Shown here: positions 1-28,402 of the stretch, one piece after another
Layout of the letters: each line of letters opens with the position of its first letter
Position numbering within the stretch: position 1 is the first letter of the stretch
Assembly: GCA_001275005.1 (NCBI GenBank)
Contig: JWZX01002788.1
Span: 1-32,803 of the forward strand
Source: Chrysochromulina tobinii
Taxonomy: Eukaryota
Length of the DNA stretch: 32,803 bases
Reading direction: 5' to 3'
Translations under genes and position numbers: made by a program
Notes under the pieces: generated by a model
Told to the model about the DNA's origin: nothing
The model's input: only the letters and a program-made list of their open reading frames with translations
The model's database searches: none

Positions 1-1890
1 GTGCAGTGACAGCTTTGACAGGCTGGCTTGCATCTCCATCTCCGCCGCGTGCTTGCGACGCAGCTTCTTGCTCTCCTGCTTGCGCTTCTTGTGCAAGCGC
101 TCGCGCATCGCCCTCGCCTCTGCCAACACACCCTCGCTCGCGAGTGCGTGGTGCTCCTCGATCGCGCCGACCAGGCCCTCGTACTGCGCGGCCGCCATGG
201 CCACACGAAGCGCCTCGTTGGCGGCGGCAGAAGGAGCAGGACCCACGACGTCCTCGTCGTCGCCAGCCGCCGCCAACACATCGTTGTCCGGCTCGGCGCT
301 GCCACTCGCGGCCGCTGACGCACTCGCTGCCGGCGCTCTCGCCTCGCTCGCCCCTTTCTTCTTGGCCTTGGCTTTCTGGCTCGCGTTCGTCTTCTGCGCG
401 CGCTGCTTGTGCACGCCCTCCGCCTCCTCCTGGGCCAGCAGAGCCGCAGCGGCAAGCTCGGCTGCCCGCTCGGCTGCCGCACGCTCCGCACTCGACACTG
501 GAGCGACCGCAGCGATCGTCGCAGGTGCGCGGCCCCTGCTGCGCAGGAATCTTGCGATGGCGGTATGGCCTCGGGCCTCTGCGACATCGAGGGCTGTGCC
601 GAAAGCAGATTGCAAGTCGGCGCGTGCGCCAGCATGCACGAGCAGCATGACTATGTCGCCGTGGCCTTCGTAGCAGGCGGTGTGCAGAGGCGTGGCGCCG
701 TAGCTTTTTGCCTGGTCGATGGCGGCGTGGGCGGCGAGCAGCAGCTGCGCGCAGTCGCCGTCGCCTTTGACGCAGGCGGCGTGCAGAGGCGTGGAGCCGT
801 AGATGTCGGCCTGGTCGACGACGGCGTGGGCGGCGAGCAGCAGCCGCACGCAGCCGCCGCTGCCTTCGCCGCAGGCGGCGATCAGAGATGTGGTGCCTCT
901 GCTGGTTGCCTGGTCGACAGCGGCGTGGGCGGCGAGCAGCAGCTGCACGCAGTCGCCGTGGCCGCTGTCGCTCGCGGCGATCAGAGGCGTGGCGCCGTCG
1001 CTGTCTGCCTGGTCGACGGTGGCGTGGGCGGCGAGCAGCAGCTGCACGCAGCCACCGTGGCCTTCGATGCTGGCGGCGCGCAGAGGCGTGACGCCGTTGC
1101 GGTCTGCCAGGTCGACGACGGCGTGGGCGGCGAGCAGCAGCCGCACGCAGCCGCCGTGGCCTTTGTCGCAGGCGACGAGCAGAGGCGTGCGGCCGTCGCT
1201 GTCTGCCTGGTCGACGGTGGCGTGGGCGGCGAGCAGCAGCTGCACGCAGCCACCGTGGCCTTCGATGCTGGCGGCGAGCAGAGGCGTGACGCCGTTGCGG
1301 TCTGCCTGGTTAACGGCGGCGTTGGCGGCGAGCAGCAGCTGCACGCAGCCACCGTGGCCTTCGATGCTGGCGGCGCGCAGAGGCGTGACGCCGTTGCGGT
1401 CTGCCTGGTTAACGGCGGCGTGGGCGGCGAGCAGCAGCCGCACGCAGCCGCCGCAACCTTTGACGCAGGCGACGATCAGAGGCGTGTTGCCGTCGCTGTC
1501 TGCTGCCTGGTCGACAGCGGCGTGGGCGGCGAGCAGCAGCTGCACGCAGCCTCCGTTGTCTTTGCAGCAGGCGGCGTACAGAGGCGTGACGCCGTTGCTG
1601 GCGGCCTGGTCGACGGCGGCGTGGGAGGCGAGCAGCAGCTGCACGCAGTTGCCGTGGCCTTTGTCGCAGGCGGCGATCAGAGGCGTGACGCCTCTGCTGG
1701 TTGCCTGGTCGACGGCGGCGTGGGCGGCGAGCAGCAGCTTCGTGCACTTAGGGTGACCAGTCTCACATGCAGCATACAGGCAGGCGCCGAGGTGGTCCGC
1801 TTCTGTCACGCTGTCGATGAGGCCCACGGCATTCGCCTCTTCGCCGCGATGGAGCGCGTCGACGATCGCGTGCATGGCCGAGCGTCGCAT
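1..1890 (-). CDS. Ankyrin-repeat protein (about 12 ANK repeats + Ala/Lys-rich linker), 3'-truncated by the window edge; paralog of the ANK-kinase at 22561-25975
   Basis: ATG at 1890 (MRRSAMHAIVDALHRGEEANAVGLIDSV...), open frame running to base 1. 33-aa repeats such as AAVDQADRNGVTPLRAASIEGHGGCVQLLLAAH. Bases 10-660 align almost base-for-base with 24085-24735. Confidence 0.88.
   Translation of the reverse strand, partial: MRRSAMHAIVDALHRGEEANAVGLIDSVTEADHLGACLYAACETGHPKCTKLLLAAHAAVDQATSRGVTPLIAACDKGHGNCVQLLLASHAAVDQAASNGVTPLYAACCKDNGGCVQLLLAAHAAVDQAADSDGNTPLIVACVKGCGGCVRLLLAAHAAVNQADRNGVTPLRAASIEGHGGCVQLLLAANAAVNQADRNGVTPLLAASIEGHGGCVQLLLAAHATVDQADSDGRTPLLVACDKGHGGCVRLLLAAHAVVDLADRNGVTPLRAASIEGHGGCVQLLLAAHATVDQADSDGATPLIAASDSGHGDCVQLLLAAHAAVDQATSRGTTSLIAACGEGSGGCVRLLLAAHAVVDQADIYGSTPLHAACVKGDGDCAQLLLAAHAAIDQAKSYGATPLHTACYEGHGDIVMLLVHAGARADLQSAFGTALDVAEARGHTAIARFLRSRGRAPATIAAVAPVSSAERAAAERAAELAAAALLAQEEAEGVHKQRAQKTNASQKAKAKKKGASEARAPAASASAAASGSAEPDNDVLAAAGDDEDVVGPAPSAAANEALRVAMAAAQYEGLVGAIEEHHALASEGVLAEARAMRERLHKKRKQESKKLRRKHAAEMEMQASLSKLSLH
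661..1745 (-). repeat. Tandem 99-bp ankyrin-coding repeat array (about 11 units; one unit has an extra codon near 1500)
   Basis: Core ggcggcgagcagcagc recurs every 99 bp. Confidence 0.9.
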
Positions 1891-2183
1891 ATCAACCTCG
1901 AAGTTTAAGTTACCGTTTTTTGGCATGCTGAACTGCATGCCAAACGTGTGAGTGCATCGTGATCGTTAAAACGACAGTCGCGTCAACCGGTGCTACCGGG
2001 TACGGCACTGTTACTGCTCGCTGTGTGAGAAAGAACCCTTCAAACTATTCACATTTCAATATGTGCCACATGTACTCGAGAGAACCAACTGAGTGAGTAC
2101 CAACGCGGGGAGTACACGAGAGGAATATTCATCCCCGTGCTGCACCTCGTGCCATGTCGCGCCGCACACGTGTGCTGGCACCC

Positions 2184-3046
2184 TTAGCGCGGCGGTGTGT
2201 CAAGTGCCATACGTTGCAGAGCTAGCCGGGCCTGTGCGTTCTCAAAGCCGCTCAGGATCTGCTGCAGATGCGCCGGCAGCGGCCCCGGCGGCATCGTGCT
2301 CGTGCCGATCAATTCCAGAAGCGACGGCGCCGACGCGCGGCTGCCGAGGTTGAAGCCCATATTGTACCACGCTGCTTCAGGAGTTCCTCGCATGGTTCCG
2401 AATCGGACACTCGCTGACGAAACTGACGACCACACAGAGGTGGGCCCCCGAGCATCGTGAAGCGCCGTGTCTGGCGAGCGCACTAGGTACGGCGAGAGAT
2501 GATGAAGCAGGAACGGCGTCTCGCCCCCTTGGGTCTGCTTGGTCGTCTTCTGCTCATCATGCGCACGGTCCCCGAGCCAAGTGACCGGGTCGGTGGTCGT
2601 CGCGGGCGAGGGCGGCGTCGTGGGCGGGACTGGGCGCTCCGCCTTGGCCTGGTACGCTGCGATCTGCGCCTTGCGCTCGGCACAGCGCTCGGCCCTCTCC
2701 CGCTTCATGGCCATCTGCGCCATCTGGGCCTTGACCTGATCCCTCGCGTCTTTGCCACGTGCGGCAGCCTGCAGCTTGGTCGCGGCAGCTGCCTCGGACG
2801 TGAAGGCGGAGATGACGTGGGTCTTCGTGCGCACGTGCTCGGCGGCATTCTGCGCCCTTCGCGCCAGTTTCGCCTTCTTGCGCGCAGGTGGAGGGATACT
2901 TCCACCTTGGCATGCTGATGACCCTCCCTCATTGCATGCTGATGACCCTCGCAGGTGAGGGATACTTCCGCCTTGGTCGGGTGGTGCGTTGCCACCCCTC
3001 GCTGCCCGCACCGCGCTACATGCCGCGCCGCCCGTGCCACCGTCAC

Positions 3047-3101
<55 letters not shown>

Positions 3102-5837
3102 TCCCCCTCCTCCTCCCCTTCCTCCCCCATCGCCCCCGGGGTCCTCCTCAGTTGCCGACGTGTCGTGATCGAGGTTGGGGAAGAGGAGGCGGCAGAACTC
3201 ATGGTAGTCGACCTCCCCCGTCTCGTCCTCGTCAAAGAGGGCAAAGAGCTGCCGCAGCTTGGCCACTGGGATCTTGAGCTTCATATTCTTCATCGCACGC
3301 TTGAACTCACCCCAATCGAGCTGCCCGTCGCCGCTCGTGTCAAACTCCTGGAAGATGCGGTGCAGCTGGCTCATGGTAAGCCCGCGCTCTTCGAGCATGA
3401 CGGCCATCCGCATCTGCATCTCCACCAGTTCCTTGCGCTCCCAGGCCGATCGGAACGCCTCGCCGATGACCGTGATCGGCATCGTCGTGAAGAGCAACCC
3501 GCACACGATCGCACAGGCGAAGACGACTCGCTGGGCGGGTCCCTGAAGCCCATGGTGGCCGTCATAGCCGAGGGTAGCCACGATCCTGTGCACGTCGAGA
3601 GGGAGATCGAGCTAAGATCGAGAGGGAGATCGAGAGGGAGATCGAGCCAGGATCGTGCTCAGAGGGAGATCGAGCACGGATCGAGAGGGAGATCGAGCCA
3701 GGATCGTGCTCAGAGGGAGATCGAGCACGTCGAGAGGGAGATCGAGCACGAGCAGGCATCGGTGTGTAGTCGGTGTGGGAGACAGACGCACACGAAAGAG
3801 CCTCTAGGGCCGCATGCATGAGTGTTTGGCTGGTGTTTGGCACACACGCACACACTCACTCAAGAGCACAACAACCAGGGAGAAGCGTTCGCGTACTCAG
3901 TCGAGGCACTCAGTCACAGCGCACCAGAAGATCATCCACATGGCTTCGAACCCATCGCCGAGCGGCTCGACCAGTCCGTCATCGAGGTCAGCGCCTCCGC
4001 TCTGGTTGCGCCGAAGCCACAGACCATACTGACCATCGGCTCTCTCGAGGATGATCAACGCGCCGGAGAGGAGAAGCGTGACGATGAGCATCGCAAAGCC
4101 GGGCACCTGATGAGGGAGGCAATCAGAGGTCATCAGAGGTCATCCGAGGTCAACAAAGAGCACCTGATGAGGTGGCAATCAAGCAAGCCATCATCCAGAG
4201 ACGTCAACAGTGAGGCCACAGCACAGAGGAAATACATCTCTGAGGCCACATCGAAGAGGACACTCAGAGGACAATCAGCGGACACCCCACGAGTATATCA
4301 TCACATCGAAGAGGGCAATCAGAGGGCAATCAGAGGACAATCAGCGGACACTCCACGAGTATACCATGAGGGCGCGATACGAGTTCTCAAGGGCGATGAG
4401 CAGCACACGCCAGCCCGAGTAGTGCTTCAGCAGCTTGAAGATGCGCGCGAGACGCAGCAGCTCGAGCAGCTCGAGCACTAGGAGCCCGTCGCTGCTGCGG
4501 CTGCCCCCGGCCATAAAAATGTCGATGTAGAAGGGGATGATGGTCGCCACGTCGATCCAGTACATGGGGTTGAACAGGAGCATGTTGCGCAGGTCGAGCG
4601 TCGCGACGTATGTGCGCAGGGCGAGCTCGATGGTGAAGATGATGCCGCACGCCACCTCGAGAGCATACAGCGACTCCGAGCGTTCAAAACTGGGGACCGT
4701 GGTCAGAAAGAAGCTGAAGACGCTCACGATGATGGTCGCAATAATAAAGATTCCAAGGGCCGAAGCCGCATACGATGATTTGGGAGCGTTGAGCGCCTTC
4801 CGAAGCCGTTGGCGAGGGTCGAGAGTCTTGGAGAGGCGCTGCTTGGTTCCAGCGGCCTCAGCCACGCTCCAGCGCTTTATGACCGAGGAGTCTCCTCCGG
4901 CCTTTTCCTTCGCCTTCGCCATGCAGGTGCAGAACTCGTCAAAGTCGATCTGGCCGGAGTCGTCGGAATCAACCTCCCTGACGATCGCGTCGAGCTCCTT
5001 CGCGCTCAGGGTCTGGCCGAGGGTGTTCATGACGTCGCCAAGCTCTTTGGTCGAGATGGTGCCGCTCCCGTCCTTGTCGAAGGCCGCAAAGATCTTCATG
5101 TACTCCTGCTTGTACTGGTCCATGGACGGCTCCTTCACACCCGCGCGGCGGCCGTTGGCTCCCGCCCAGGTCAGGGGCACCCAGAGCCTCCTTGGTGCCC
5201 CACGAGAGAGCAGCGGACTCACAGTGAGCCCTCGAGGAATCGTAGGTGGGCGCAGCGCCGTTCGTGTCCGATGGCCATCGGAGGCACACTCGGCGGCGGG
5301 AGGTTGGGATTCCTCATGAGCCCATGTACGTTCCTTGGACGTGGCACCTTCGCGCGCTTTGAGACCCCCTCTGGCAACACGTTTGCGATCCCAAAAATGG
5401 GAGCCCAGAGGTGCCATCAGCGTGAGCCTTCGGCGCATCGGAGGTGGAGGTACAGATGGAGACGCTGCCGGGCGGGAGAGAAGGCCATCTGACGCGCGCT
5501 CGTGTGGCGGCGTGTCTTCGAGGTGGAGCCTGATCTCATCCGCCCGGAACCACAAACTCTGGCCGTTTGCGAAGCGCACCTGGTACGGGCGAATCCTGGG
5601 CTCATTCAGGTCGTCCGTGATGAGCACGCCCGTCTGCCCGACGAACAGCCGAGTGGACTGGTTCAACGGGTCCCCTTTGGCCTTGACCACAATGACCGTG
5701 TCACCCACCCTCGCCCGTCGACGTCGTGACGACACCTTTGGTGGTGTCGACAGCAATGCGGCCGCCTTCAACTTTCCCCAATGTGGACCTGCCTTCGGAG
5801 CTGCGTTCGGTTGTGCCCCTTCAGCCCGGAAATTCAT
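2184..5837 (-). CDS. Voltage-gated K+ channel-family (6TM) protein with N- and C-terminal EF-hand pairs and an IQ motif. Exons about 5837-4365, 4106-3925, 3585-2184; 5' structure uncertain
   Basis: Calmodulin-like lobe FDKDGSGTISTKELGDVMNTLG...VDSDDSGQIDFDEF. S4 LRLARIFKLLKH. Pore FEAMWMIFW|IVATLGYDG. S6 CGLLFTTMPITVIGEAF. EF-hands DTSGDGQLDWGEF and DEDETGEVDYHEF. IQ-like LQAAARGKDAR. GT-AG introns 4364-4107 and 3924-3586 join the frames. Confidence 0.85.
3047..3100. repeat. (GCC)n trinucleotide run encoding poly-Gly in the channel C-terminus
   Basis: Direct inspection. Confidence 0.9.
3586..3924 (-). other. Spliceosomal intron with gagggagatcgag repeats
   Basis: TG|GTGCGC ... cacAG|G restores W-IVATLGYDG. 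Confidence 0.8.
4107..4364 (-). other. Spliceosomal intron, repeat-rich, with internal copies of its own donor and acceptor
   Basis: ATG|GTATAC ... ctgattgcctccctcatcAG|GTG. Decoy acceptor near 4161, decoy donor near 4281-4300. Confidence 0.8.
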
Positions 5838-21082: not shown

Positions 21083-21914
21083 ATGGACGCCGCTGCCGTC
21101 GCAGGCAACGTCGCCATCGTCACCGGCGGATCCGGCGGCATCGGGCTCGCCGTCTGCCATCGGCTCGCGGCGCGCGGTCGCGAAGCTGGTGCTCGGCTAC
21201 GGCAGCGACGAGAAACGCGCTGCGGCGGCATGCGACGAGCTGCGTACGGCCTACCCTGGCATACGGGTCGTCAGCGTGGGCGGCGACTTGACCACAGACG
21301 CGAGCCGCACGGCGACCGTCGACTTGATCTTTGAGGCGGTCGACGCGCTTGGCGGCAACGTGTCGGCGTTTGTGCACGCGGCGGGCTACTTTGCAGCCGA
21401 CCTGCTCTCGCACCACTTTGATGGCGCGTGCGACGATTTCGCCATGTACGACGCGTACCAGTCCATCTACCCGAAAAGCTTTGTGGCCATCACGGAGAAG
21501 GCGCTGCAGCGGATGGGGCGGGGCGGCCGGATAATCGCGATCAGCAACCCCGGGTGCAACGCGATGCAGACTCCGCGCGTAGGGTACGACATGCCCGGCC
21601 AGGGCAAGGCCACCATGGAATTCGCCGTTCGCATGTACGCGATGCGCACCGCCAAGCGCGGCATCTGCGTCAACGCCGTGTCTCCGGGGTACACCGACAC
21701 CGCCGAATGGGATAAGGCGCGGCTCCAGATGGGAGGCGGCGACCTCGAAAAGGGGCGGGCGATGCTCGACGCGCGCATGCTCGTGCGCTCGCCTATCCAG
21801 CGCTGGGCAGCTCCCGACGAGATCGCCCAGACGGTTGACTTTCTGGTCGGCGAGCAGACGGGCATGATAACGGGCGCGACGATCCCCGTGGACGGCGGTC
21901 TGCACCTGACGTAA
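21083..21914 (+). CDS. Short-chain dehydrogenase/reductase, enoyl-reductase (FabI/FabL)-type, with an apparent +1 frameshift near 21179
   Basis: VAIVTGGSGGIG Rossmann motif, FVHAAG, Y-x6-K (YDMPGQGK), VNAVSPG, ITGATIPVDGG. The N-terminus and the rest are in different frames (GGT[C]GCG AAG). Confidence 0.85.
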
Positions 21915-22560
21915 TTACTGAAGTAACTGACGTAACGATCCATGTGGGGACTGCGGTCTGCACCTGACGTGAGCGAGCGGCGCCGGCGGCGGCGCGAGGC
22001 GCGCGCGTGCGTCGGTGGCGCGCCCTCGGAGCCGATCGGATGCTTTAGCATAATAGCAACCGGGACGCGTGCGATGCTCACCCTCGATCTCGTCTCGCGG
22101 CGACGCGGCGGGGTGCCCCTAGTCCCCTACCACCCGGTCTGCCGCCGCGGAGCGCGGAGGGCTCAGTGTACAGTGATATCGCTCTCGATTCTTCATCGCT
22201 TTGTAACCACTGCAAGTGGACGAGCCGAGGGTGGAGACTTCTCTGATCTCTCCGTGTTTTCCTCCACATGGTTTTCCTCGTAGAAATTTTGAAGAAATAT
22301 CTCCACCGACGAGACGGACCATGCGAGAGCCTCCCGTCGGGGGCGCGGCGCACGATACCGCATACCCATCTAGCACCCGTCTTTCACACTTCACACTAGA
22401 CACTTGTCTCGCGACACCGCACCTCTGACTCAACTCATTCTATTCTCGCCCGTCGCCGAGCGTTACGTATCGTATGCCTTAGTTTTTTCGTACAATCTAA
22501 TATCTATTCGGAAGTAATATTCGACTAGGATGCCGCACATCCACATCGCCGCCATGATAC

Positions 22561-25500
22561 TCAACGTGATGAAGTGCCCTCGAGCGCCTCAATCGCCGTC
22601 TTCACCGCGGACACTAGCTGCGACGCCTCCGCCTCGCCCCGTGGGCCATCGCGGCGCCAACGATCGTCGTCGAGGTGGCGCGCGGCATTTGCCCAAATGC
22701 GGAGCGAGTGCAGCCGATCTTTCAGGTCGGCCCGCATGCTACACTCGCGATGCCAATAGTTGATGCGCTCCTCAAAGCCCTCGGGCGCCTTCGCCGCCCT
22801 CGCTGCATAGATGGCGTCGAGTCGAGACATGACGCTGCTGAACGCGAGCAGCATATTGTCCTTGATGCCCTTGTGCGCATCGGAGCCCTTGCGCATCTCA
22901 CGCACCTGCTTCGAGAGCGGCGTGGGCACGTAGCCAGCCGCCGTGCTCGCGGGCGGCTCCGAGCTTGAAAGCACCGAACCGTCGAGCGCGCCGCGGCCTG
23001 TGCCTCTGCTCCCATCCTCATCAGCCAGGCTTGAGAGCGTCGCCAGTGCAGCGGACACCTTGAGCCTCTTCCGCACACTCGTGCCATGGCACAGACCCGA
23101 AGCAGCAGACCGGACAAGGTCCTTGAATTTCGTTGCCACATGTGGCGGCCAGCCTGCAGTAGCGTCAGCAAGCTGTACTGCATCGATGTCCTCAAAGTCC
23201 TTATCGAAGTCCTCCTCGCACCTAGTGATGATGCTCAGGGGCGAGCGGCCGGTAAGCGCCACGAGCAGCGTGATGCCCAGCGCCCAACCATCCGTCATAG
23301 CTGAGTACGCGCCGCCCTCGACAACGCTCGGGTCCAGATAGCCGCGGGTCAGGTAGAGCGCATTCGACGCGCTCTTCATCTTCGACGCCTCGGTCCCGGC
23401 GTCCATCTTGGCGAAGCCCGTGTCCGCGAGGTAGGCGTTGAGCTCGTCGTCGAGCAGGATGTTCTCGGGCTTGAAGTCGCGATGCACGACGGCACCCTTG
23501 CCGCCAGGCACTCGCGTGTGCAGGTAGAGCAGCGCGTCGGTCGCCTGGCGTAGGATGCGCAGGCGCTGGTGCCACATCAGAGGGCTCAGCGACGCACCGA
23601 GGCCGAGGCGGCGCAGGTGCTCGGAGTCGGCCTCTTTCGGCCACAGCCGATCGGCGAGGCTGCCGCCGCGCATCAGCGGGAAGACGAGGCACGGCGGCGC
23701 CCCGTGCTCCAGACAGTAGCCGAGCAGCGGCAGCACGTGCGGGTGGCTGCACTGCTGCAGCACACTCACCTCGCGCTGCAGGTCGGCGAGATCGTGCACG
23801 CCCGACTTGGCGCGCTTGACGGCGACGGGCTTGTGGCGCAACCAGAGCGGCAGCGCCGCGGGCCGCAGCGACGACAGCGCATCCGCGGTGTAGACGTTGC
23901 CGTAGCCGCCGCTGCCGATGAGCCTCTGCTCTCCAAAGCCGTCCGTCGCCGCCGCAAGCTCGGCGAGCGTGAGGGCGACGGCCGCAGGCGGCGCCGAGGG
24001 TGCCTCCGGGGCCTCCGATGCAGGCGCCGCTTCTGCGGATGCTGAGCCTGCGGCAGGCGGCGACTGTGTGACCTCGAGCAGCGACAGCTTCGACAGGCTG
24101 GATTGCATATCCATCTCCGTCGCGTGCTTGCGACGCAGCTTCTGGCTCTCCTGCTTGCGTTTCTTGTGCAAGCGCTCGCGCATCGCCCTCGCCTCCGCCA
24201 ACACGCCCTCGCTCGCGAGTGCGTGGTGCTCCATGATCGCACCGACCAGGACCTCGTACTGCGCGGCCACCATGGCCACACGAAGCGCCTCGTCGGCGGC
24301 GGCAGAAGGAGCCGGACCCACGACGCCCTCGTCGTCGCCAGCCGCCGCCAACACCTCGTTGTCCGCCTCGGCGCTGCCACTCGCGACCGCTGACGCACTC
24401 GCTGCCGGCGCTCTCGCCTCGCTCGCCCCTTTCTTCTTGGCCTTGGCTTTCTGGCTCGCGTTCGTCTTCTGCGCGCGCTGCTTGTGCGCGCCCTCCGCCT
24501 CCTCCTCGGCCAGCAGAGCCGCAGCGGCAAGCTCGGCTGCCCGCTCGGCTGCCGCACGCTCCGCACTCGACACCGGAGCGACCGCAGCGATCGTCGCAGG
24601 TGCGCGGCGCCGGCTGCGCAGGAATCTTGCGATGATCGTGTGGCCTCCAGCCTCTGCGACATCGAGGGCTGTGCCCGAAGCGCATCGCAAGTCGGTGCGT
24701 GCACCAGCATGCACGAGCAGCTTGACTATGTCGCCGTGGCCTTGGTTGCAGGCGGCGTGCAGAGGCGTGGCGCCCTTGCGGTCTGCCTGGTTGACACTGG
24801 CGTTGGCGGTGAGCAGCATTTGCGCGCAGTCGCCGTGGCCTTTGTTGCAGGCGGCGAGCAGGGGCGTGAAGCCGTCGCAGTCCGCATGGTCGATGGCGGC
24901 GTGGGCGGCGAGCAGCAGCTGCACGCAGTCGCCGTGGCCTCTGTCGCTGGCGGCGAGCAGACGGCGTGTTGCCGTAGCTGGAGGCCTTGTCGACGGCGGC
25001 GTGGGCGGCGAGCAGCAGCCGCGCGCAGTCGCCGTTGCCTTTGACGCAGGCGGCGTACAGAGGCGTGCCGCCTTCGCGGTCTGCCTGGTCGACGACGGCG
25101 TGGGCGTCGAGCAGCAGCCGCACGCAGCCGCCGTCGCAATTGTCGCAGGCGGCGATCAGAGGCGTGGTGCCGTTGCTGTCTGCCTGGTCGACGGTGGCGT
25201 GGGCGGCGAGCAGCAGCCGCACGCAGTCGCCGTGGCTTTTGCGGCAGGCGGCGTGCAGAGGCGTGACGCCCTTGCGGTCTGCCTGGTCGACGGCGGCGTG
25301 GGTGGCGAGCAGCAGCCGCACGCTGTCGCCGTGGCCTTTGTCGCAGGCGGCGTACAGAGGCGTGACGCCGTAGCTGGAGGCCTGGTCGACGGCGGCGTGG
25401 GCGGCGAGCAGCAGCTGCACGCAGTCGCCGTGGCCTTTGTAGCAGGCGGCGTACAGAGGCGTGGCGCCGTCGCTGTCTGCCTGGTCGACGGCGGCGCGGG

Positions 25501-25975
25501 CGGCAAGCAGCAGCTGCGCGCAGTCCCCGTCGCCTTTCATGCAGGCGGCATGCAGAGGTGTGATGCTCCATTTATCAGCCTGGTCGACGGCGGCGTGGGC
25601 GGCGAGCAGCAGCTGCACGCAGTCGCCGTTGCCTTTGTTGCAGGCGGAGATCAGAGGCGTGGTGCCGTTGCGTTCTGCCTGGTCGACGGCGGCGTGGGCG
25701 GCGAGAAGCAGCTGCACGCAGTCGCCGTCGCCTTTGTCGCAGGCGGCGATCAGAGGCGTGACGCCGTTGCTCTCTGCATGGTCGACGGCGGCGTGGGCGG
25801 CGAGAAGCAGCCTCGCGCACTTAGGGTGACCAGTCTCACATGCACTCAGAAGGCTTTTCCCGAGGTCGGCCGCTCCTTTGACGCTGTCGATGAGGCCCAC
25901 GGCCATGGCCTCGTCGCCGCGACGGAGCGCGTCGACGATCGCGTTGGCCTTGACGAGGTTGCCTGTCGCGTCCAT
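22561..25975 (-). CDS. Ankyrin-repeat (x12) + IRAK/Pelle/RLK-like protein kinase + putative HEPN/DUF4145-like C-terminal domain; apparent 1-bp insertion at 24962
   Basis: ANK repeats. LTLAELAAATDGFGEQRLIGSGGYGNVY, VAVKR, HRDFKPENILLD, ADTGFAK, GYLDP, TDGWALG. C-terminal LHSLRIWANAARH. ORFs 23222-25975 and 22561-24924 join if c24962 is removed (gagcagaCggcgtg vs consensus gagcagaggcgtg). Confidence 0.88.
24735..25820 (-). repeat. Tandem 99-bp ankyrin-coding repeat array (about 11 units)
   Basis: 99-bp periodicity of ggtcgacggcggcgtgggcggcgagcagcagc. Confidence 0.9.
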
Positions 25976-26170
25976 TCTCTCGCGCGTGCCAAGTGCGGTT
26001 TTCGCGGCTACAATGTAAACTTTTCGAAATTGCCATCCAGCACGAGCGCCTTTTTACATAGACGTTACATGTAGCCCACAGGATAACGTGACGGCGGTCA
26101 TTGTATGAAATTATGATTCATACTTCTTCATCTCCCCCTGATACTAGCTTGTGTGTGGGTATTTCACGCC

Positions 26171-28106
26171 ATGCCAGTCCCTCGCTGCGGCGCCTCGCAA
26201 ACGAGGTCGTCGTCTCCTCTGCTGCTGCTCACTCTGCTGTCAGGCACGTCGGCAGTGCTGCGTGTGCGTGTGCCACGGATGAACGCGGGCGGTGCCACGA
26301 TTGGAGCTGCCACGCGCTTCTCCATCCTCAGCGGCCGCGTTCTGACGCCCGGCTCCTCTGGCGACGGCTGGTGGGACGGCCGGTGCGCCGCGATGCCGAT
26401 CGTGCTGCCCCCGTCCGCGTCGCGCAGCAAGTGGCAATGCTTCTATTACGGCCGCTCGGACGACAAGTGGAACTGCGGGTTGCCCGCCTTCTTGCCGACG
26501 GGCGTCTCAGGGCTCGCCGAGTCAGACGACGGGCTCACCTGGACGCGCGTCGAGGGTCCCCTGGAGGGCGGCGCCATTCTGCGCCCGTCGGACGCACCCG
26601 ATGCCTTCGACCACGTGCACCTCGGCATGACGGACGTCTTTCCGCTCGCGGGCGGCGCGTACGCAGCACTCTACTTTGGGGGCAGCGCAGATGAGGTGCG
26701 GCTGGGCATGGGGCCCAGCCCTCCTATCCGGGGCTTCAAGATGCGCCCAGGCGCGGCGACCTCGCGCGATGGGCGCGGGCGCGTCTGGGAGCGCGCGCAT
26801 GGATCCAATCCCCTGCTGGACGTAGGCACCTCTGGCACTTGGGATTCCAATTTCGTCTCGTGGCCCCGGGCACTGCCCCTTGACCCCGGGCAGCCGGATG
26901 GCGAGTGGCTCATGACGTATCACGCGCTGCAGCCGCCGGAGGCGGAGGGTGCACCGCCGCGCTGGGCGGTCGGTGCAGCCGTGAGCCAGGATGGTCATCC
27001 GATCGGCCGTTATGCCAAGCTCGAAGGGCCCATCCTCAGTGGAGGCGCACCGGGGAGCTTTGACGAAGCTGGCATTGGCACGCGCCACGTGGTGCACGAT
27101 CCGGCAGGCGCTGTATCGGGCGCTGGGCTCGTGATGGTGTACGAGGGCGTGGGCGCGGACGGTCGCCACCGGCTCGGCATCGCCACCTCGTCCGACGGGC
27201 GTCTGTGGACCAAGGCGGAGGGCTTGGGGCCCGACCCGGGCGGTCCCATCTTTGAAGGCGCTCCGCCCGAGGCCGATGCTTGGGACAATGGCAACGTGGG
27301 TACGCTCGCGAGCACGAGAAGCTCTCCCCTTGGAGCCTGGTCAGCTGCATGCAAGTGCTCACCACGGCGCCCTCTCCTCCCCACAGGTACGCTCGCGAGC
27401 ACGAGGAGCGCCATGCCTGGCGCATGCACGTGCTCATCACGGCGCCCTCGCCCTTCCCCACAGGTACGCCGTGGGTCGTCCCACTGCCGAGCTGCATGCA
27501 CGTGCTCACCACGGCGCCCTCTCCCTTCCCCACACAGGGTACGCCGTGGGTCGTCCCACTGCCGAGCGGCCGTTGGCGCCTGTATTACGTCGGCACGTCG
27601 AGCAAGGGACGCACCGTCGCCATCGGGGCCGCGGAGGCGGATGCGCTCATCACGGCGCGCTGGGCGCGCGTGCCCGTCTCGGCCAGCGGTCTGTGCGTGG
27701 ACGAGCGCGACGGCGCAGGCGAGACTTCCCTCATCCTTGGAGCCTGGCCAGCTGCATGCACGTGCTCACTACGGCGCCTCCTCCTCATCGGGCAGGCGAG
27801 ACTTCCCTCATCCTGGCCGCCGAGCGTGGCGATGCCGGTACGCTCCGCATCCTTCTCGCCGCCGGAGCCGACCCCGGCGCTTCGAGTCGCTCGGGATGGA
27901 CTGCGCTGCATGGCGCGGCCGAGCACGGCAGTGTGCCCATCATCGAGATGCTCGCGGCCGCTGGCGGCGATGTCTCCGCGCTTGCCAAATCGGGCAAGAC
28001 GCCCCTCGACATCGCGCGCCAGTATGCGAGGCCCGAGGCTGCGCAAGCGCTGGAAGCACTCGGCGCAGCAGCGAAAGTCTCGGGCGACACGCCGAGCACC
28101 TTTTGA
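26171..28106 (+). CDS. Five-bladed beta-propeller glycoside hydrolase-like protein (GH32/43/130-like fold) with C-terminal ankyrin repeats. Introns from 27300 (acceptor 27463 or 27537) and 27719-27795 (GC-AG)
   Basis: N-terminal hydrophobic signal. Blade motifs WWDG, GLAESDDGLTWTR, AFDH, WDSNFV, SFDEAGIG, LGIATSSDGRLWTK, AWDNGNVGTPWV..WRLYYVG. ANK motifs GETSLILAAERG, GWTALHGAAEHG, GKTPLDIA. Confidence 0.8.
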
Positions 28107-28402
28107 GTGGACACCTGCCTTTCACGAACAGAAACGCATGTGCAGAAAATCACAAGTTTTCCCCACAGAAATGCTGTCGAGTAAACACCTCTCTTTCCCC
28201 ACAGCACGCTGTTTGACGCTCGGGCAATGCCGCTTCGCTTGTCACTTGTGAATGAGAGGAGAGGTGTTCACTCGGCAGACAGAAATGTCCCTATGCATTC
28301 ACTGCTGCGCGGCCTCTCACTCTCCCGCGGCGCTCGGCCGACCCAGGGGACGGGGCGGAGCGGCTCAATCACTGAGGTCAGAGGTTGAACCTCTGCGGCT
28401 CA

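What the first reader, a model, noticed from the sequence alone, without database searches (positions are those of the whole stretch)
22561..25975. Ankyrin-kinase-HEPN-like protein: an RNase L-like architecture built from an IRAK/Pelle-type kinase, candidate algal innate-immunity sensor-effector
Seen: 12 ANK repeats, a linker, an RD kinase with the RLK/IRAK-type lead-in (LTLAELAAATDGFGEQRLIGSGGYG), then a roughly 110-aa helical-looking domain containing LHSLRIWANAARH (22675-22713). Established: DUF4145/HEPN domains carry an LRxx(G/R)NxAxH motif, and metazoan RNase L is ANK + (pseudo)kinase + HEPN-related KEN RNase activated by dimerisation. Inference: this may be a convergently assembled sensor-kinase-ribonuclease for antiviral defence or regulated cell death. 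Caveats: the motif has A where HEPN often has R (ANAARH) and no clear upstream ExxxR, so the domain may be inactive or unrelated.
Basis: partly seen in the sequence, partly recalled or inferred. Interest (0 to 1): 0.88.

Follow-up and report, generated by a model that had tools for sequence, protein, structure and literature searches.

The report
Haptophyte ankyrin-kinase fused to HEPN RNase
This gene of the alga Chrysochromulina tobinii joins ankyrin repeats, an IRAK/receptor-like protein kinase and a bacterial-type (DUF4145) HEPN domain that is predicted to cut RNA, so it likely works like the animal antiviral enzyme RNase L although it is built from unrelated parts.

Summary
On the minus strand, 22561-25975 encodes 13 ankyrin units, a helical stalk, a kinase with all catalytic motifs and a 122-aa helical tail carrying LHSLRIWANAARH.

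The tail is a DUF4145-type HEPN domain:
- Profile-profile match to bacterial DUF4145: probability 77-88%, P 2.8e-6; 100 column shuffles reached at most score 20.3, against 39.5.
- A family member passes Pfam's DUF4145 cut-off (26.0 vs 23.1 bits).
- Arg77, Asn81 and His85 are invariant. Arg77 and His85 have the spacing of the catalytic Arg146/His154 of the bacterial DUF4145 RNase RAZR.
- All 128 relatives keep exactly one further Arg, at -5 or at -1 from the His.

The kinase's nearest solved relatives are plant RLK/RLCK and IRAK, not Ire1 or RNase L. All named relatives are haptophytes. All 52 relatives of 425 aa or more carry the kinase, behind ankyrin, Sel1, armadillo or cold-shock domains. 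A second paralog lies at 1-1938.

RNase activity, the activation mechanism and an antiviral role are inferred, not shown. My literature searches found no description. Earlier scan notes report similar architectures in other genomes, but not this family.

The parts
22561..25975 (-). Whole gene: ATG at 25975, stop codon at 22561-22563. Two reading frames meet at 24961/24962.
   Evidence: P0004 (1138 aa) matches end to end.
24616..25861 (-). Ankyrin array: 13 units of 33 aa in register. Variation is concentrated at unit positions 1, 5, 9, 31 and 32.
24961..24962 (-). One extra base (frameshift) inside ankyrin unit 10.
   Evidence: In one search table 4, one base is 'left out' at 24962 in the only covering contigs: X1 at depth 212.5 of 212.5, and X13 at 3.72 of 3.72.
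24070..24312 (-). Conserved helical hairpin plus a 47-residue helix in the linker. Probably a stalk or coiled coil. It is not a Death domain.
   Evidence: helices 11-26, 29-39 and 45-91, with pLDDT 92-98. No Pfam family.
23107..23931 (-). Protein kinase domain of the RLK/Pelle/IRAK kind, with an intact Gly loop, VAVK, HRDFKPEN and DTG.
22930..23106 (-). Low-complexity Ser/Gly/Ala-rich linker between the kinase and the tail.
   Evidence: translation. It is unaligned and variable.
22564..22929 (-). DUF4145-type HEPN domain (122 aa). It includes the conserved lead-in PTPLSxQVRxxR.
22675..22713 (-). Motif LHSLRIWANAARH. Codons: R77 at 22699-22701, A80 at 22690-22692, N81 at 22687-22689, R84 at 22678-22680, H85 at 22675-22677.
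   Evidence: The spacing matches R146/H154 of RAZR.
1..1938 (-). Second paralog: ATG at 1938, N-terminal cap, 14 ankyrin repeats and the linker in one open frame. It runs off the window's left end just before the kinase.
   Evidence: (84% identity to linker residues 1-282).

Best explanation
The gene encodes ankyrin repeats, a helical stalk, a protein kinase of the RLK/Pelle/IRAK kind with all catalytic motifs, and a C-terminal DUF4145-type HEPN domain. That domain is predicted to be a metal-independent RNase, which would be switched on when the repeats bind a ligand and bring two or more molecules together.

Shown here:
- the domain order;
- the identity of the tail as a DUF4145-like HEPN domain;
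- invariance of Arg77, Asn81 and His85;
- the rule that exactly one more Arg sits at -5 or -1 from the His;
- the constant kinase-HEPN pair behind interchangeable N-terminal repeat domains (ankyrin, Sel1, armadillo, cold-shock);
- restriction of named members to haptophytes;
- a second paralog in the window.

Inferred by analogy with RAZR, RNase L and Ire1:
- two HEPN domains pair to form a composite active site;
- pairing follows ligand-driven clustering through the repeats and stalk, together with kinase trans-autophosphorylation;
- the RNase then cuts cellular and/or viral RNA (tRNA, rRNA or mRNA) and stalls translation;
- the likeliest setting is defence against the giant viruses that infect haptophytes.

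This particular copy carries a 1-base frameshift. That is probably an assembly error or a very recent lesion.
For: Domain identity of the tail:
- hhalign of 101 haptophyte tails against 30 bacterial DUF4145 segments gave probability 88.5%, P 2.8e-6 and score 39.5 over 61 columns (helix 2 to helix 4), with LR..N..H aligned.
- The tool's own run on alignment A4 against A3 gave 77.4%, E 1.9e-5.
- Controls: the reversed template scored 11.1. 100 column shuffles averaged 10.2 (sd 2.0, max 20.3).
- Pfam: 17 of 70 family members scanned hit DUF4145 at E <= 0.05. P0217 scored 26.0 bits, above the 23.1 cut-off; P0223 scored 23.0 and P0237 22.2. These proteins match my profile at E 1.8e-35, 3.6e-32 and 1.8e-27.
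- My own DUF4145 HMM scores the tails up to 22.4 bits (median 12.7, window 13.6). 505 shuffled tails reached at most 8.3.

Fold:
- AF2 model with pLDDT 84.9 and pTM 0.74.
- Re-alignment of Foldseek's list: ranks 1-9 are all HEPN superfamily.
- The motif ends helix 67-84. That is where the HEPN definition puts it (passages of PMC3710099).

Active site:
- R77, N81 and H85 are invariant.
- In RAZR, R146 and H154 are 8 residues apart, the same spacing. Alanine substitutions abolish defence, and the protein cleaves ssRNA (passages of PMC13017515).
- All 128 proteins that carry the motif have exactly one Arg at -5 or -1: 104 at -1 and 24 at -5.
- The two states need at least 2 changes by well-supported branches, and 11 on the best tree.

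Kinase:
- Top solved relatives are SYMRK, PBL2, RIPK, FERONIA, BIK1, BRI1, Pto, BAK1, IRAK1 and IRAK4.
- HRDxKxxN is present in 52 of 52 and DxG in 51 of 52.

Architecture:
- 52 of 52 relatives of 425 aa or more carry kinase Pfam domains. N-terminal domains are ankyrin (most), cold-shock (P0006), armadillo (P0160) and Sel1 (P0163, P0211).
- The variable ankyrin positions 1, 9, 31 and 32 coincide with the usual target-binding positions of ankyrin repeats. That mapping is recalled, not tested.

Expression:
- Members occur in MMETSP transcriptomes (P0068; Haptolina ericina P0173).
- Contigs of two RNA runs cover close relatives.
Against: - The window's own tail gets no Pfam family even at E <= 10. 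A profile search of PDB sequences found nothing better than E 0.44.
- Foldseek gave no match at E <= 0.001.
- The hhalign match covers only the C-terminal 61 columns. Helix 1 is not aligned.
- The window copy lacks the canonical Arg at -5 (ANAARH).
- A conserved acidic residue in helix 2 is not clear.
- A flexible linker of about 60 aa separates the kinase from HEPN. In Ire1 and RNase L the two are rigidly joined, so kinase-driven pairing of the RNase domains need not carry over.
- No RNase assay, no dimer structure and no infection data exist.
- Many HEPN domains are non-catalytic.
- Four of 22 long hits scanned showed no kinase at E <= 1e-4 (P0228, P0240, P0222, P0301). They may be fragments, chimeric gene models or other architectures.
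- This copy is frameshifted in the assembly.
Confidence: 0.55

Rival explanations
1. The tail is a HEPN-fold domain that no longer cuts RNA. It would serve the kinase as a dimerisation, nucleotide-binding or substrate-docking module. The output of the protein would be phosphorylation only, as in an IRAK- or RLCK-type signalling kinase.
For: - The kinase keeps every catalytic motif in 52 of 52 relatives.
- Several HEPN families are non-catalytic: NTase-associated, sacsin and MtlR (passages of PMC3710099). Some of them rank high in the fold search: DrrA, GlnE and MtlR.
- The window copy lacks Arg at -5.
Against: - R77, N81 and H85 are invariant.
- The strict one-Arg rule at -5/-1 holds in 128 of 128 proteins. 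That is hard to explain without an active site.
- R and H at this spacing are the catalytic pair of RAZR.
Confidence: 0.25
2. It is an active kinase-RNase, but it works in housekeeping or abiotic stress: regulated tRNA, rRNA or mRNA cleavage in the manner of Ire1. It would not act in defence against viruses.
For: - Ire1 shows that kinase-HEPN pairs can serve stress signalling (established knowledge; Table 1 of PMC3710099).
- No relative was found in viral contigs.
- No infection data were found.
Against: - The N-terminal repeat domains are swapped between members.
- Variation sits at binding positions of the ankyrin units.
- There are two paralogs in one 33-kb contig and many near-identical relatives.
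- This pattern is typical of conflict genes rather than of a single-copy housekeeping enzyme.
- DUF4145 is a defence-associated domain in bacteria.
Confidence: 0.15
3. This particular copy is a pseudogene. The frameshift at 24961/24962 is real in the strain, and only its paralogs are functional.
For: - The assembly has the extra base.
- Run X5, whose flanking contigs match the window without a difference, had no contig over the place.
Against: - Both frames are otherwise free of stops over 3.4 kb.
- P0004 is 100% identical over 337 + 410 aa around the break and lacks it.
- The only covering contigs, one DNA and one RNA, lack the base.
Confidence: 0.2
4. The tail is an unrelated helical bundle, and the motif resembles HEPN by chance.
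For: - No Pfam hit for the window's own tail.
- Weak Foldseek E-values.
Against: - The hhalign score of 39.5 compares with a shuffle maximum of 20.3.
- A family member lies above Pfam's DUF4145 cut-off, and 17 of 70 hit at E <= 0.05, with DUF4145 the only recurrent non-kinase, non-repeat family apart from three weak T3SS_SCTL hits.
- HEPN proteins fill ranks 1-9.
Confidence: 0.05

Closest known systems
RAZR (PD-T7-4) and other bacterial DUF4145 (PF13643) HEPN proteins, including the N-terminal domain of EcoKI HsdR
   Same: - Same HEPN family by profile and Pfam.
- Same LRxx[G/R/A]NxAxH motif, with Arg 8 residues before His.
- The effector domain sits at the C-terminus of a protein whose N-terminus senses something.
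- RAZR is activated by oligomerisation and cleaves ssRNA.
   Different: - RAZR has a zinc ribbon and no kinase or ankyrin repeats.
- The 2013 survey listed DUF4145 for bacteria, archaea and dsDNA viruses, not eukaryotes.
- Helix 1 and the PTPLSxQVR lead-in of the haptophyte domain do not align with DUF4145.
RNase L (metazoa)
   Same: Same order of parts: ankyrin repeats, then a kinase fold, then a HEPN-superfamily RNase. RNase L is activated by dimerisation.
   Different: - The RNase L C-terminus is KEN, a circularly permuted HEPN. Here the order is canonical, and there is no Pfam KEN hit.
- RNase L has a pseudokinase. Here all catalytic motifs are kept, and the kinase is of the RLK/Pelle/IRAK kind.
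- Long linkers lie on both sides of the kinase.
- 13 ankyrin units here, against 9 in RNase L (the 9 is recalled).
Ire1
   Same: An active kinase directly upstream of a HEPN-superfamily RNase.
   Different: - Ire1 has a lumenal sensor plus a membrane span, a KEN domain and a different kinase family.
- No Ire1 or RNase L chain is among the 60 best solved relatives of this kinase.
IRAK/Pelle kinases and plant RLK/RLCK immune kinases (BIK1, PBL2, RIPK, Pto)
   Same: They are the nearest solved relatives of the kinase domain, at E 1e-24 to 1e-20. The lead-in before the Gly loop is similar.
   Different: - No Death domain: the linker models as a hairpin plus a long helix.
- No membrane span or ectodomain.
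- It carries an RNase-type domain at the C-terminus.
Architectures noted earlier in this scan: e1-7397148 and e1-9563975 (ankyrin, coiled coil, HEPN-like, kinase in other eukaryotes) and e1-8511562 (bacterial kinase-HEPN)
   Same: They combine ankyrin repeats, a kinase and a HEPN-like domain.
   Different: They differ in domain order and in HEPN family (DZIP3-like). A look-up by sequence found no shared sequence. I did not check those notes.

Membership tests
HEPN superfamily (as defined in PMC3710099) | Four-helix up-and-down bundle of two alpha-hairpins, often with an insert between helices 2 and 3 | tested here: met
   - The model has helices 4-40, 52-62, 67-84 and 99-120.
HEPN superfamily | Rx4-6H motif at the end of helix 3, with a polar residue after the Arg | tested here: inconclusive
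   - The window copy reads R77-IWANAAR-H85. There is no Arg at -5, but there are Args at -8 and -1, with N at -4.
- 24 of 128 relatives have the canonical RN[AS]xxH.
- The motif does end helix 67-84.
HEPN superfamily | Second conserved acidic residue in helix 2 (Ex3[KR]) | tested here: inconclusive
   Helix 52-62 reads FEERINYWHRE. F52 and R55 are invariant, and positions 53/54 are mostly but not always acidic. I had no coordinates to check proximity.
DUF4145 (Pfam PF13643) | Score above Pfam's curated cut-off (23.1 bits) | tested here: inconclusive
   - The window's own tail has no hit at E <= 10.
- Relatives: P0217 at 26.0 bits (passes), P0223 at 23.0, P0237 at 22.2.
- 17 of 70 scanned hit at E <= 0.05, and 3 of 25.
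DUF4145 (Pfam PF13643) | Profile-profile homology with aligned LRxx[GR]NxAxH | tested here: met
   hhalign gave 88.5% with P 2.8e-6 and 77.4% with E 1.9e-5. The shuffle maximum was 20.3 against 39.5.
DUF4145 (Pfam PF13643) | Catalytic Arg and His 8 residues apart, as in RAZR R146/H154 | tested here: met
   R77 and H85 are invariant in 25 of 25 sequences. The RAZR residues come from passages of PMC13017515.
KEN domain (RNase L / Ire1, Pfam Ribonuc_2-5A) | Sequence match to the KEN family; circularly permuted HEPN | tested here: not met
   No such Pfam hit at E <= 0.1 for the whole ORF, nor at E <= 10 for the tail and 24 relatives. The helix order is canonical, with the motif before the last helix.
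RNase L | Pseudokinase (catalytically inactive kinase fold) | tested here: not met
   The Gly loop, VAVK, HRDFKPEN and DTG are present. HRDxKxxN is present in 52 of 52 relatives.
RNase L | 2-5A binding by ankyrin repeats | not testable with these tools
   No ligand test is available.
RLK/Pelle/IRAK kinase group | Nearest relatives are RLK/RLCK/IRAK kinases | tested here: met
   The 22 best solved sequences are plant RLK/RLCK and IRAK1, followed by CERK1 and IRAK4. I built no formal tree with outgroups.
IRAK/Pelle proper | N-terminal Death domain | tested here: not met
   The linker has no Pfam Death hit. It models as a hairpin plus a 47-residue helix.

The most novel reading that the evidence does not exclude
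Haptophytes built their own RNase L. It is an expanding family of cytoplasmic immune receptors in which interchangeable repeat sensors (ankyrin, Sel1, armadillo, cold-shock) drive an IRAK-like kinase and a bacterial abortive-infection RNase (DUF4145 HEPN). On sensing a giant virus, the receptor clusters, cuts RNA and shuts the cell down. This would be an independent, prokaryote-derived invention of the kinase-HEPN suicide switch in a major group of ocean algae.
Probability: 0.3. Interest if true: 0.85.

Novelty: new variant of a known kind. Interest (0 to 1): 0.7.

Why it matters
- Haptophytes such as Emiliania and Chrysochromulina are major ocean and lake primary producers. Giant viruses end their blooms, yet almost nothing is known of their intracellular immunity.
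- This family gives a concrete, testable candidate: a sensor-kinase-RNase whose three predicted catalytic residues, kinase motifs and variable sensor surface can each be mutated.
- It would extend DUF4145, a bacterial anti-phage RNase domain shown to be catalytic only in 2026, into eukaryotes.
- It would also be a second, independent case of the 'ankyrin + kinase + HEPN' solution known from RNase L. That bears on how often immune architectures are reinvented from prokaryotic defence parts.

Tried and rejected
- Pfam on the window's tail alone: no family even at E <= 10.
- Profile of 20 tails against PDB sequences: best E 0.44, nothing usable.
- ESM Atlas: only unnamed bacterial clusters at 0.90. 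RnlA/HEPN_RnaseLS clusters scored 0.83, which is a lead only.
- Foldseek against PDB: no match at E <= 0.001. Foldseek against viral models (BFVD): none at E <= 0.001.
- Viral contigs (IMG/VR): 13 pattern matches, none a relative.
- Homodimer prediction of the tail: 'no answer', score 0.23 against a mark of 0.32, and the alignment was not used. This is no evidence either way.
I did not repeat it, so the state of the base in the source strain stays open.
- The window's whole genome is not held, so I could not count copies. Contig depths are far higher over the gene than over its flanks (X5: 38-42 in the flanks, 146-4261 in the gene). The tool warns that such depths cannot rank genes, so I use this only as a hint of many copies.
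- I considered a 16-base GT..AG mini-intron at the frame break and rejected it. Removing it would delete LLAAS from a perfect repeat, while P0004 and two contigs differ by exactly one base.
- KEN membership and a Death domain in the linker were tested and not met.
- Literature searches that found no description of this family:
  - 'HEPN' + 'Emiliania huxleyi': 1 unrelated paper.
  - 'Pelle' + 'IRAK' + 'haptophyt': 2 unrelated papers.
  - 'Chrysochromulina tobin' + 'kinase' + 'ankyrin': 2 unrelated papers.
  - 'HEPN' + 'RNase L' + 'algae' + 'horizontal', from 2019: 0 papers.
  - Four EMIHUDRAFT gene ids: 0 papers.
  - 'DUF4145' + 'eukaryot': 5 papers by listing, none titled on a eukaryotic member; I read passages of only two of them.
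  - Supplements were not searched.
- The neighbouring genes gave no functional link. They are a short-chain dehydrogenase at 21183-21911 and an unassigned ORF at 26153-28216.
Full report
**What is there**

The window is a 32,803-base contig of the haptophyte alga Chrysochromulina tobinii. Its annotated protein P0002 ('ankyrin unc44', 876 aa) sits on a contig of exactly this length and matches the tail at 100%. No whole genome is held for the window.

On the minus strand, an ATG at 25975 opens a frame that encodes an N-terminal cap and ankyrin repeats. A second frame, ORF 22561..24924 (787 aa), carries the last repeats, a linker, a kinase and a C-terminal tail.

- Pfam finds Ank_2 at E 4.5e-102 in the first part.
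- In the second part it finds Pkinase at E 5.7e-29 (residues 332-606) plus ankyrin families, and nothing for the last 180 residues.
- The repeats form 13 units of exactly 33 aa in register. Variation is concentrated at unit positions 1, 5, 9, 31 and 32.

**The frameshift**

The two frames meet at 24961/24962, where one base too many interrupts ankyrin unit 10.

- P0004 is a 1138-aa protein from an independent assembly. It is 100% identical over the 337 aa before the break and over the first 410 aa after it. It reads TPLLAAS straight through.
- Contigs of four public runs were laid on the gene. The only two that cover the place, one DNA contig of X1 and one RNA contig of X13, both lack one base at 24962.
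- Run X5 matches the flanks without a difference, but it has no contig over the place.
- The lesion is therefore probably an assembly error or very recent. That is not proven for the source strain.
- NCBI's model P0002 avoids the break with an intron that removes three repeats.

**The tail is a conserved domain**

- A word-based search with residues 655-787 found 43 proteins of 432-1378 aa at E <= 6e-36. They include two Emiliania huxleyi proteins at 63-68% identity.
- A search in the 63-263 aa range found 109 proteins, mostly fragments on short contigs.
- An exhaustive HMMER search of 1.84 billion cluster representatives found 167 proteins at E <= 0.001.
- The named sources are C. tobinii, E. 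huxleyi, an MMETSP transcript (P0068) and Haptolina ericina. All are haptophytes.
- In a 25-sequence alignment reaching down to 40% identity, these residues are invariant: N25, F30, F52, R77, W79, N81, H85, R90, W91, R93, G95, P96 and A102.

**Is it HEPN?**

Sequence tests on the window's tail alone fail:
- Pfam finds nothing even at E <= 10.
- A profile search of PDB sequences finds nothing better than E 0.44.

The family-level tests succeed.

(a) Profile against profile.
- I collected 30 bacterial DUF4145 segments: 53 of 401 Pseudomonadota genomes had a Pfam-level hit, and the segments were cut out.
- hhalign of 101 haptophyte tails against them gave probability 88.5%, P 2.8e-6 and score 39.5 over 61 columns.
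- The match runs from helix 2 to the last helix. LH.LR..[x]NAA.H lies over l..vR..GN.AaH.
- The tool's own hhalign on alignment A4 against A3 gave 77.4%, E 1.9e-5.
- The reversed template scored 11.1. 100 column-shuffled templates averaged 10.2 (sd 2.0, max 20.3).

(b) Pfam on individual members.
- Of the 150 listed hits, I scanned 70. These were new ids, mostly the longer ones; I left out short fragments and ids seen before.
- 17 of them hit DUF4145 at E <= 0.05. P0217 scored 26.0 bits, above the curated 23.1. P0223 scored 23.0, P0237 22.2 and P0233 20.3.
- These proteins belong to the family at E 1.8e-35, 3.6e-32, 1.8e-27 and 7.6e-29. They share its PTPLSxQVR lead-in, and P0223 and P0233 also carry the kinase.

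(c) My own DUF4145 HMM.
- It scores the tails up to 22.4 bits. The median is 12.7, the window's tail scores 13.6, and 79 of 101 reach 10 bits or more.
- 505 shuffled tails reach at most 8.3.

(d) Fold.
- The AF2 model (pLDDT 84.9, pTM 0.74) has helices 4-40, 52-62, 67-84 and 99-120.
- Foldseek gave no E <= 0.001. HEPN entries (2hsb, HepT toxins, Cas13b) stood among its first rows.

The motif ends helix 67-84. That is the position the HEPN definition gives it (passages of PMC3710099).

**The active site**

Three observations answer this.

First, the bacterial DUF4145 motif is LRxx[G/R]NxAxH. The EcoKI HsdR N-terminus reads FHKLRRIGNQAVH, and the 30 segments read alike.

Second, in RAZR, the DUF4145 RNase characterised in 2026, the catalytic residues are R146 and H154.
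- They are 8 residues apart, like R77 and H85 here.
- Alanine substitutions abolish phage defence.
- The protein cleaves ssRNA, tRNA and rRNA, and acts as an oligomer of HEPN dimers.

Third, I looked at 152 retrieved proteins.
- 128 carry R.W.N...H. The other 24 are fragments or lack the region.
- All 128 have exactly one further Arg: at -1 with A, S or G at -5 (104 proteins), or at -5 with S, D, L, G or A at -1 (24 proteins).
- None has both and none has neither.
- The -5 form, WRNA[SA]xH, is the canonical RNxxxH. It is the state of the most divergent clade.
- On a tree built with both positions masked, the two states need 11 changes. Well-supported branches alone force at least 2. Among the near-identical Chrysochromulina-type sequences the states are intermixed.
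- A variant contig laid on the window changes GCA to AGG and CGC to AGC together, which gives WRNAASH.
- Positions -5 and -1 are one helical turn apart, so an Arg at either could reach the same place. This is inference; I had no coordinates.

A conserved acidic residue in helix 2 is not clear.

**The kinase**

- The nearest solved sequences are plant RLK/RLCK immune and developmental kinases and IRAK1, at E 1e-24 to 8e-20. They are SYMRK, PBL2, RIPK, FERONIA, BIK1, BRI1, Pto and BAK1. CERK1 and IRAK4 follow.
- No Ire1 or RNase L chain is among the best 60.
- HRDxKxxN is present in 52 of 52 relatives of 425 aa or more, and DxG in 51 of 52. This is a predicted active RD kinase, unlike the RNase L pseudokinase.
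- The linker upstream has no Pfam family. It models as a helical hairpin plus a 47-residue helix at pLDDT 92-98. This is a stalk or coiled coil, not a Death domain.

**Architecture across the family**

- All 52 relatives of 425-2000 aa found with the tail profile carry kinase Pfam domains.
- The N-terminal domains differ: ankyrin in most, a cold-shock domain in P0006, armadillo repeats in P0160, and Sel1 repeats in P0163 and P0211.
- Of 22 long hits from the exhaustive search, 18 showed a kinase at E <= 1e-4. P0228, P0240, P0222 and P0301 did not. P0222 shows a kinase at E 1.4e-4. The others may be fragments, chimeric gene models or other architectures.
- The window holds a second paralog at 1-1938 (minus strand): cap, 14 ankyrin repeats and linker in one open frame. 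Its linker is 84% identical to that of the first copy. It is cut off by the contig end just before the kinase.

**Mechanism**

Shown: the parts and their conservation.

Inferred:
- The repeats bind a ligand.
- Clustering through the repeats and stalk brings kinases and HEPN domains together.
- The kinase trans-phosphorylates.
- Paired HEPN domains form a composite site built from R77, N81, H85 and the mobile Arg.
- RNA is cut and translation stalls.

The swapped sensor domains, the variable ankyrin surface positions, the paralogs and the bacterial defence pedigree of DUF4145 all point to conflict with viruses rather than housekeeping. No infection data were found. A flexible linker of about 60 aa between the kinase and HEPN is unlike the rigid kinase-KEN junction of Ire1 and RNase L.

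**Comparison with what is known**

The protein works like RNase L or Ire1 in outline but belongs to neither family. There is no KEN hit and no circular permutation. The kinase is active and of another group. The C-terminal domain belongs with DUF4145, which the 2013 survey listed for bacteria, archaea and dsDNA viruses only.

My literature searches found no description of this fusion. Supplements were not searched.

Earlier notes of this scan describe ankyrin/kinase/HEPN-like combinations in other genomes, with another domain order and another HEPN family. A look-up by sequence found none with this family.

**Verdict**

- The HEPN reading is supported at the family level.
- Catalysis, the activation mode and an immune role remain to be tested.
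- I class it as a new variant of a known kind, with interest 0.7.

Noticed in passing
window 1-1938 (minus strand): A second paralog of the same family. It has an ATG at 1938, then 14 ankyrin repeats and the linker in one intact frame. It runs off the contig end just before the kinase. It lies 20 kb from the first copy, on the same strand.
   Followed up: partly
window 24961-24962: A single extra base breaks the reading frame of the studied gene. NCBI's gene model hides it with an intron that deletes three ankyrin repeats.
   Followed up: yes
P0006 (relative): In this relative a cold-shock domain plus a Gly-rich stretch replaces the whole ankyrin array. The junction falls exactly at SRRRAPATIAAV, the point where the linker starts. 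This suggests exon or domain shuffling at that point, or a chimeric gene model.
   Followed up: no
window 22900-22929 (PTPLSxQVRxxR lead-in of the tail): A nearly invariant segment (L5, S6, Q8, V9, R10, R13) precedes the HEPN core. It is modelled as the start of the first long helix at only moderate confidence. It could be a phosphorylation or regulatory site for the adjacent kinase.
   Followed up: no
window 22400-26100, runs X1 and X5: Summed contig depth over the gene body is tens to hundreds of times that of the flanks, and the gene is assembled only as short contigs. This hints at many near-identical copies. The tool warns that such depths cannot rank genes.
   Followed up: partly
window 21183-21911 (plus strand): The downstream neighbour is a short-chain dehydrogenase / enoyl-ACP-reductase-like gene (adh_short_C2, E 4.3e-28). 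There is no evident link to the finding.
   Followed up: partly
window 2184-3593 (minus strand): This ORF has EF-hand-like text (DTSGDGQLDWGEF, DEDETGEVDYHEF) and a long poly-Gly run, next to the second paralog. I did not examine it.
   Followed up: no
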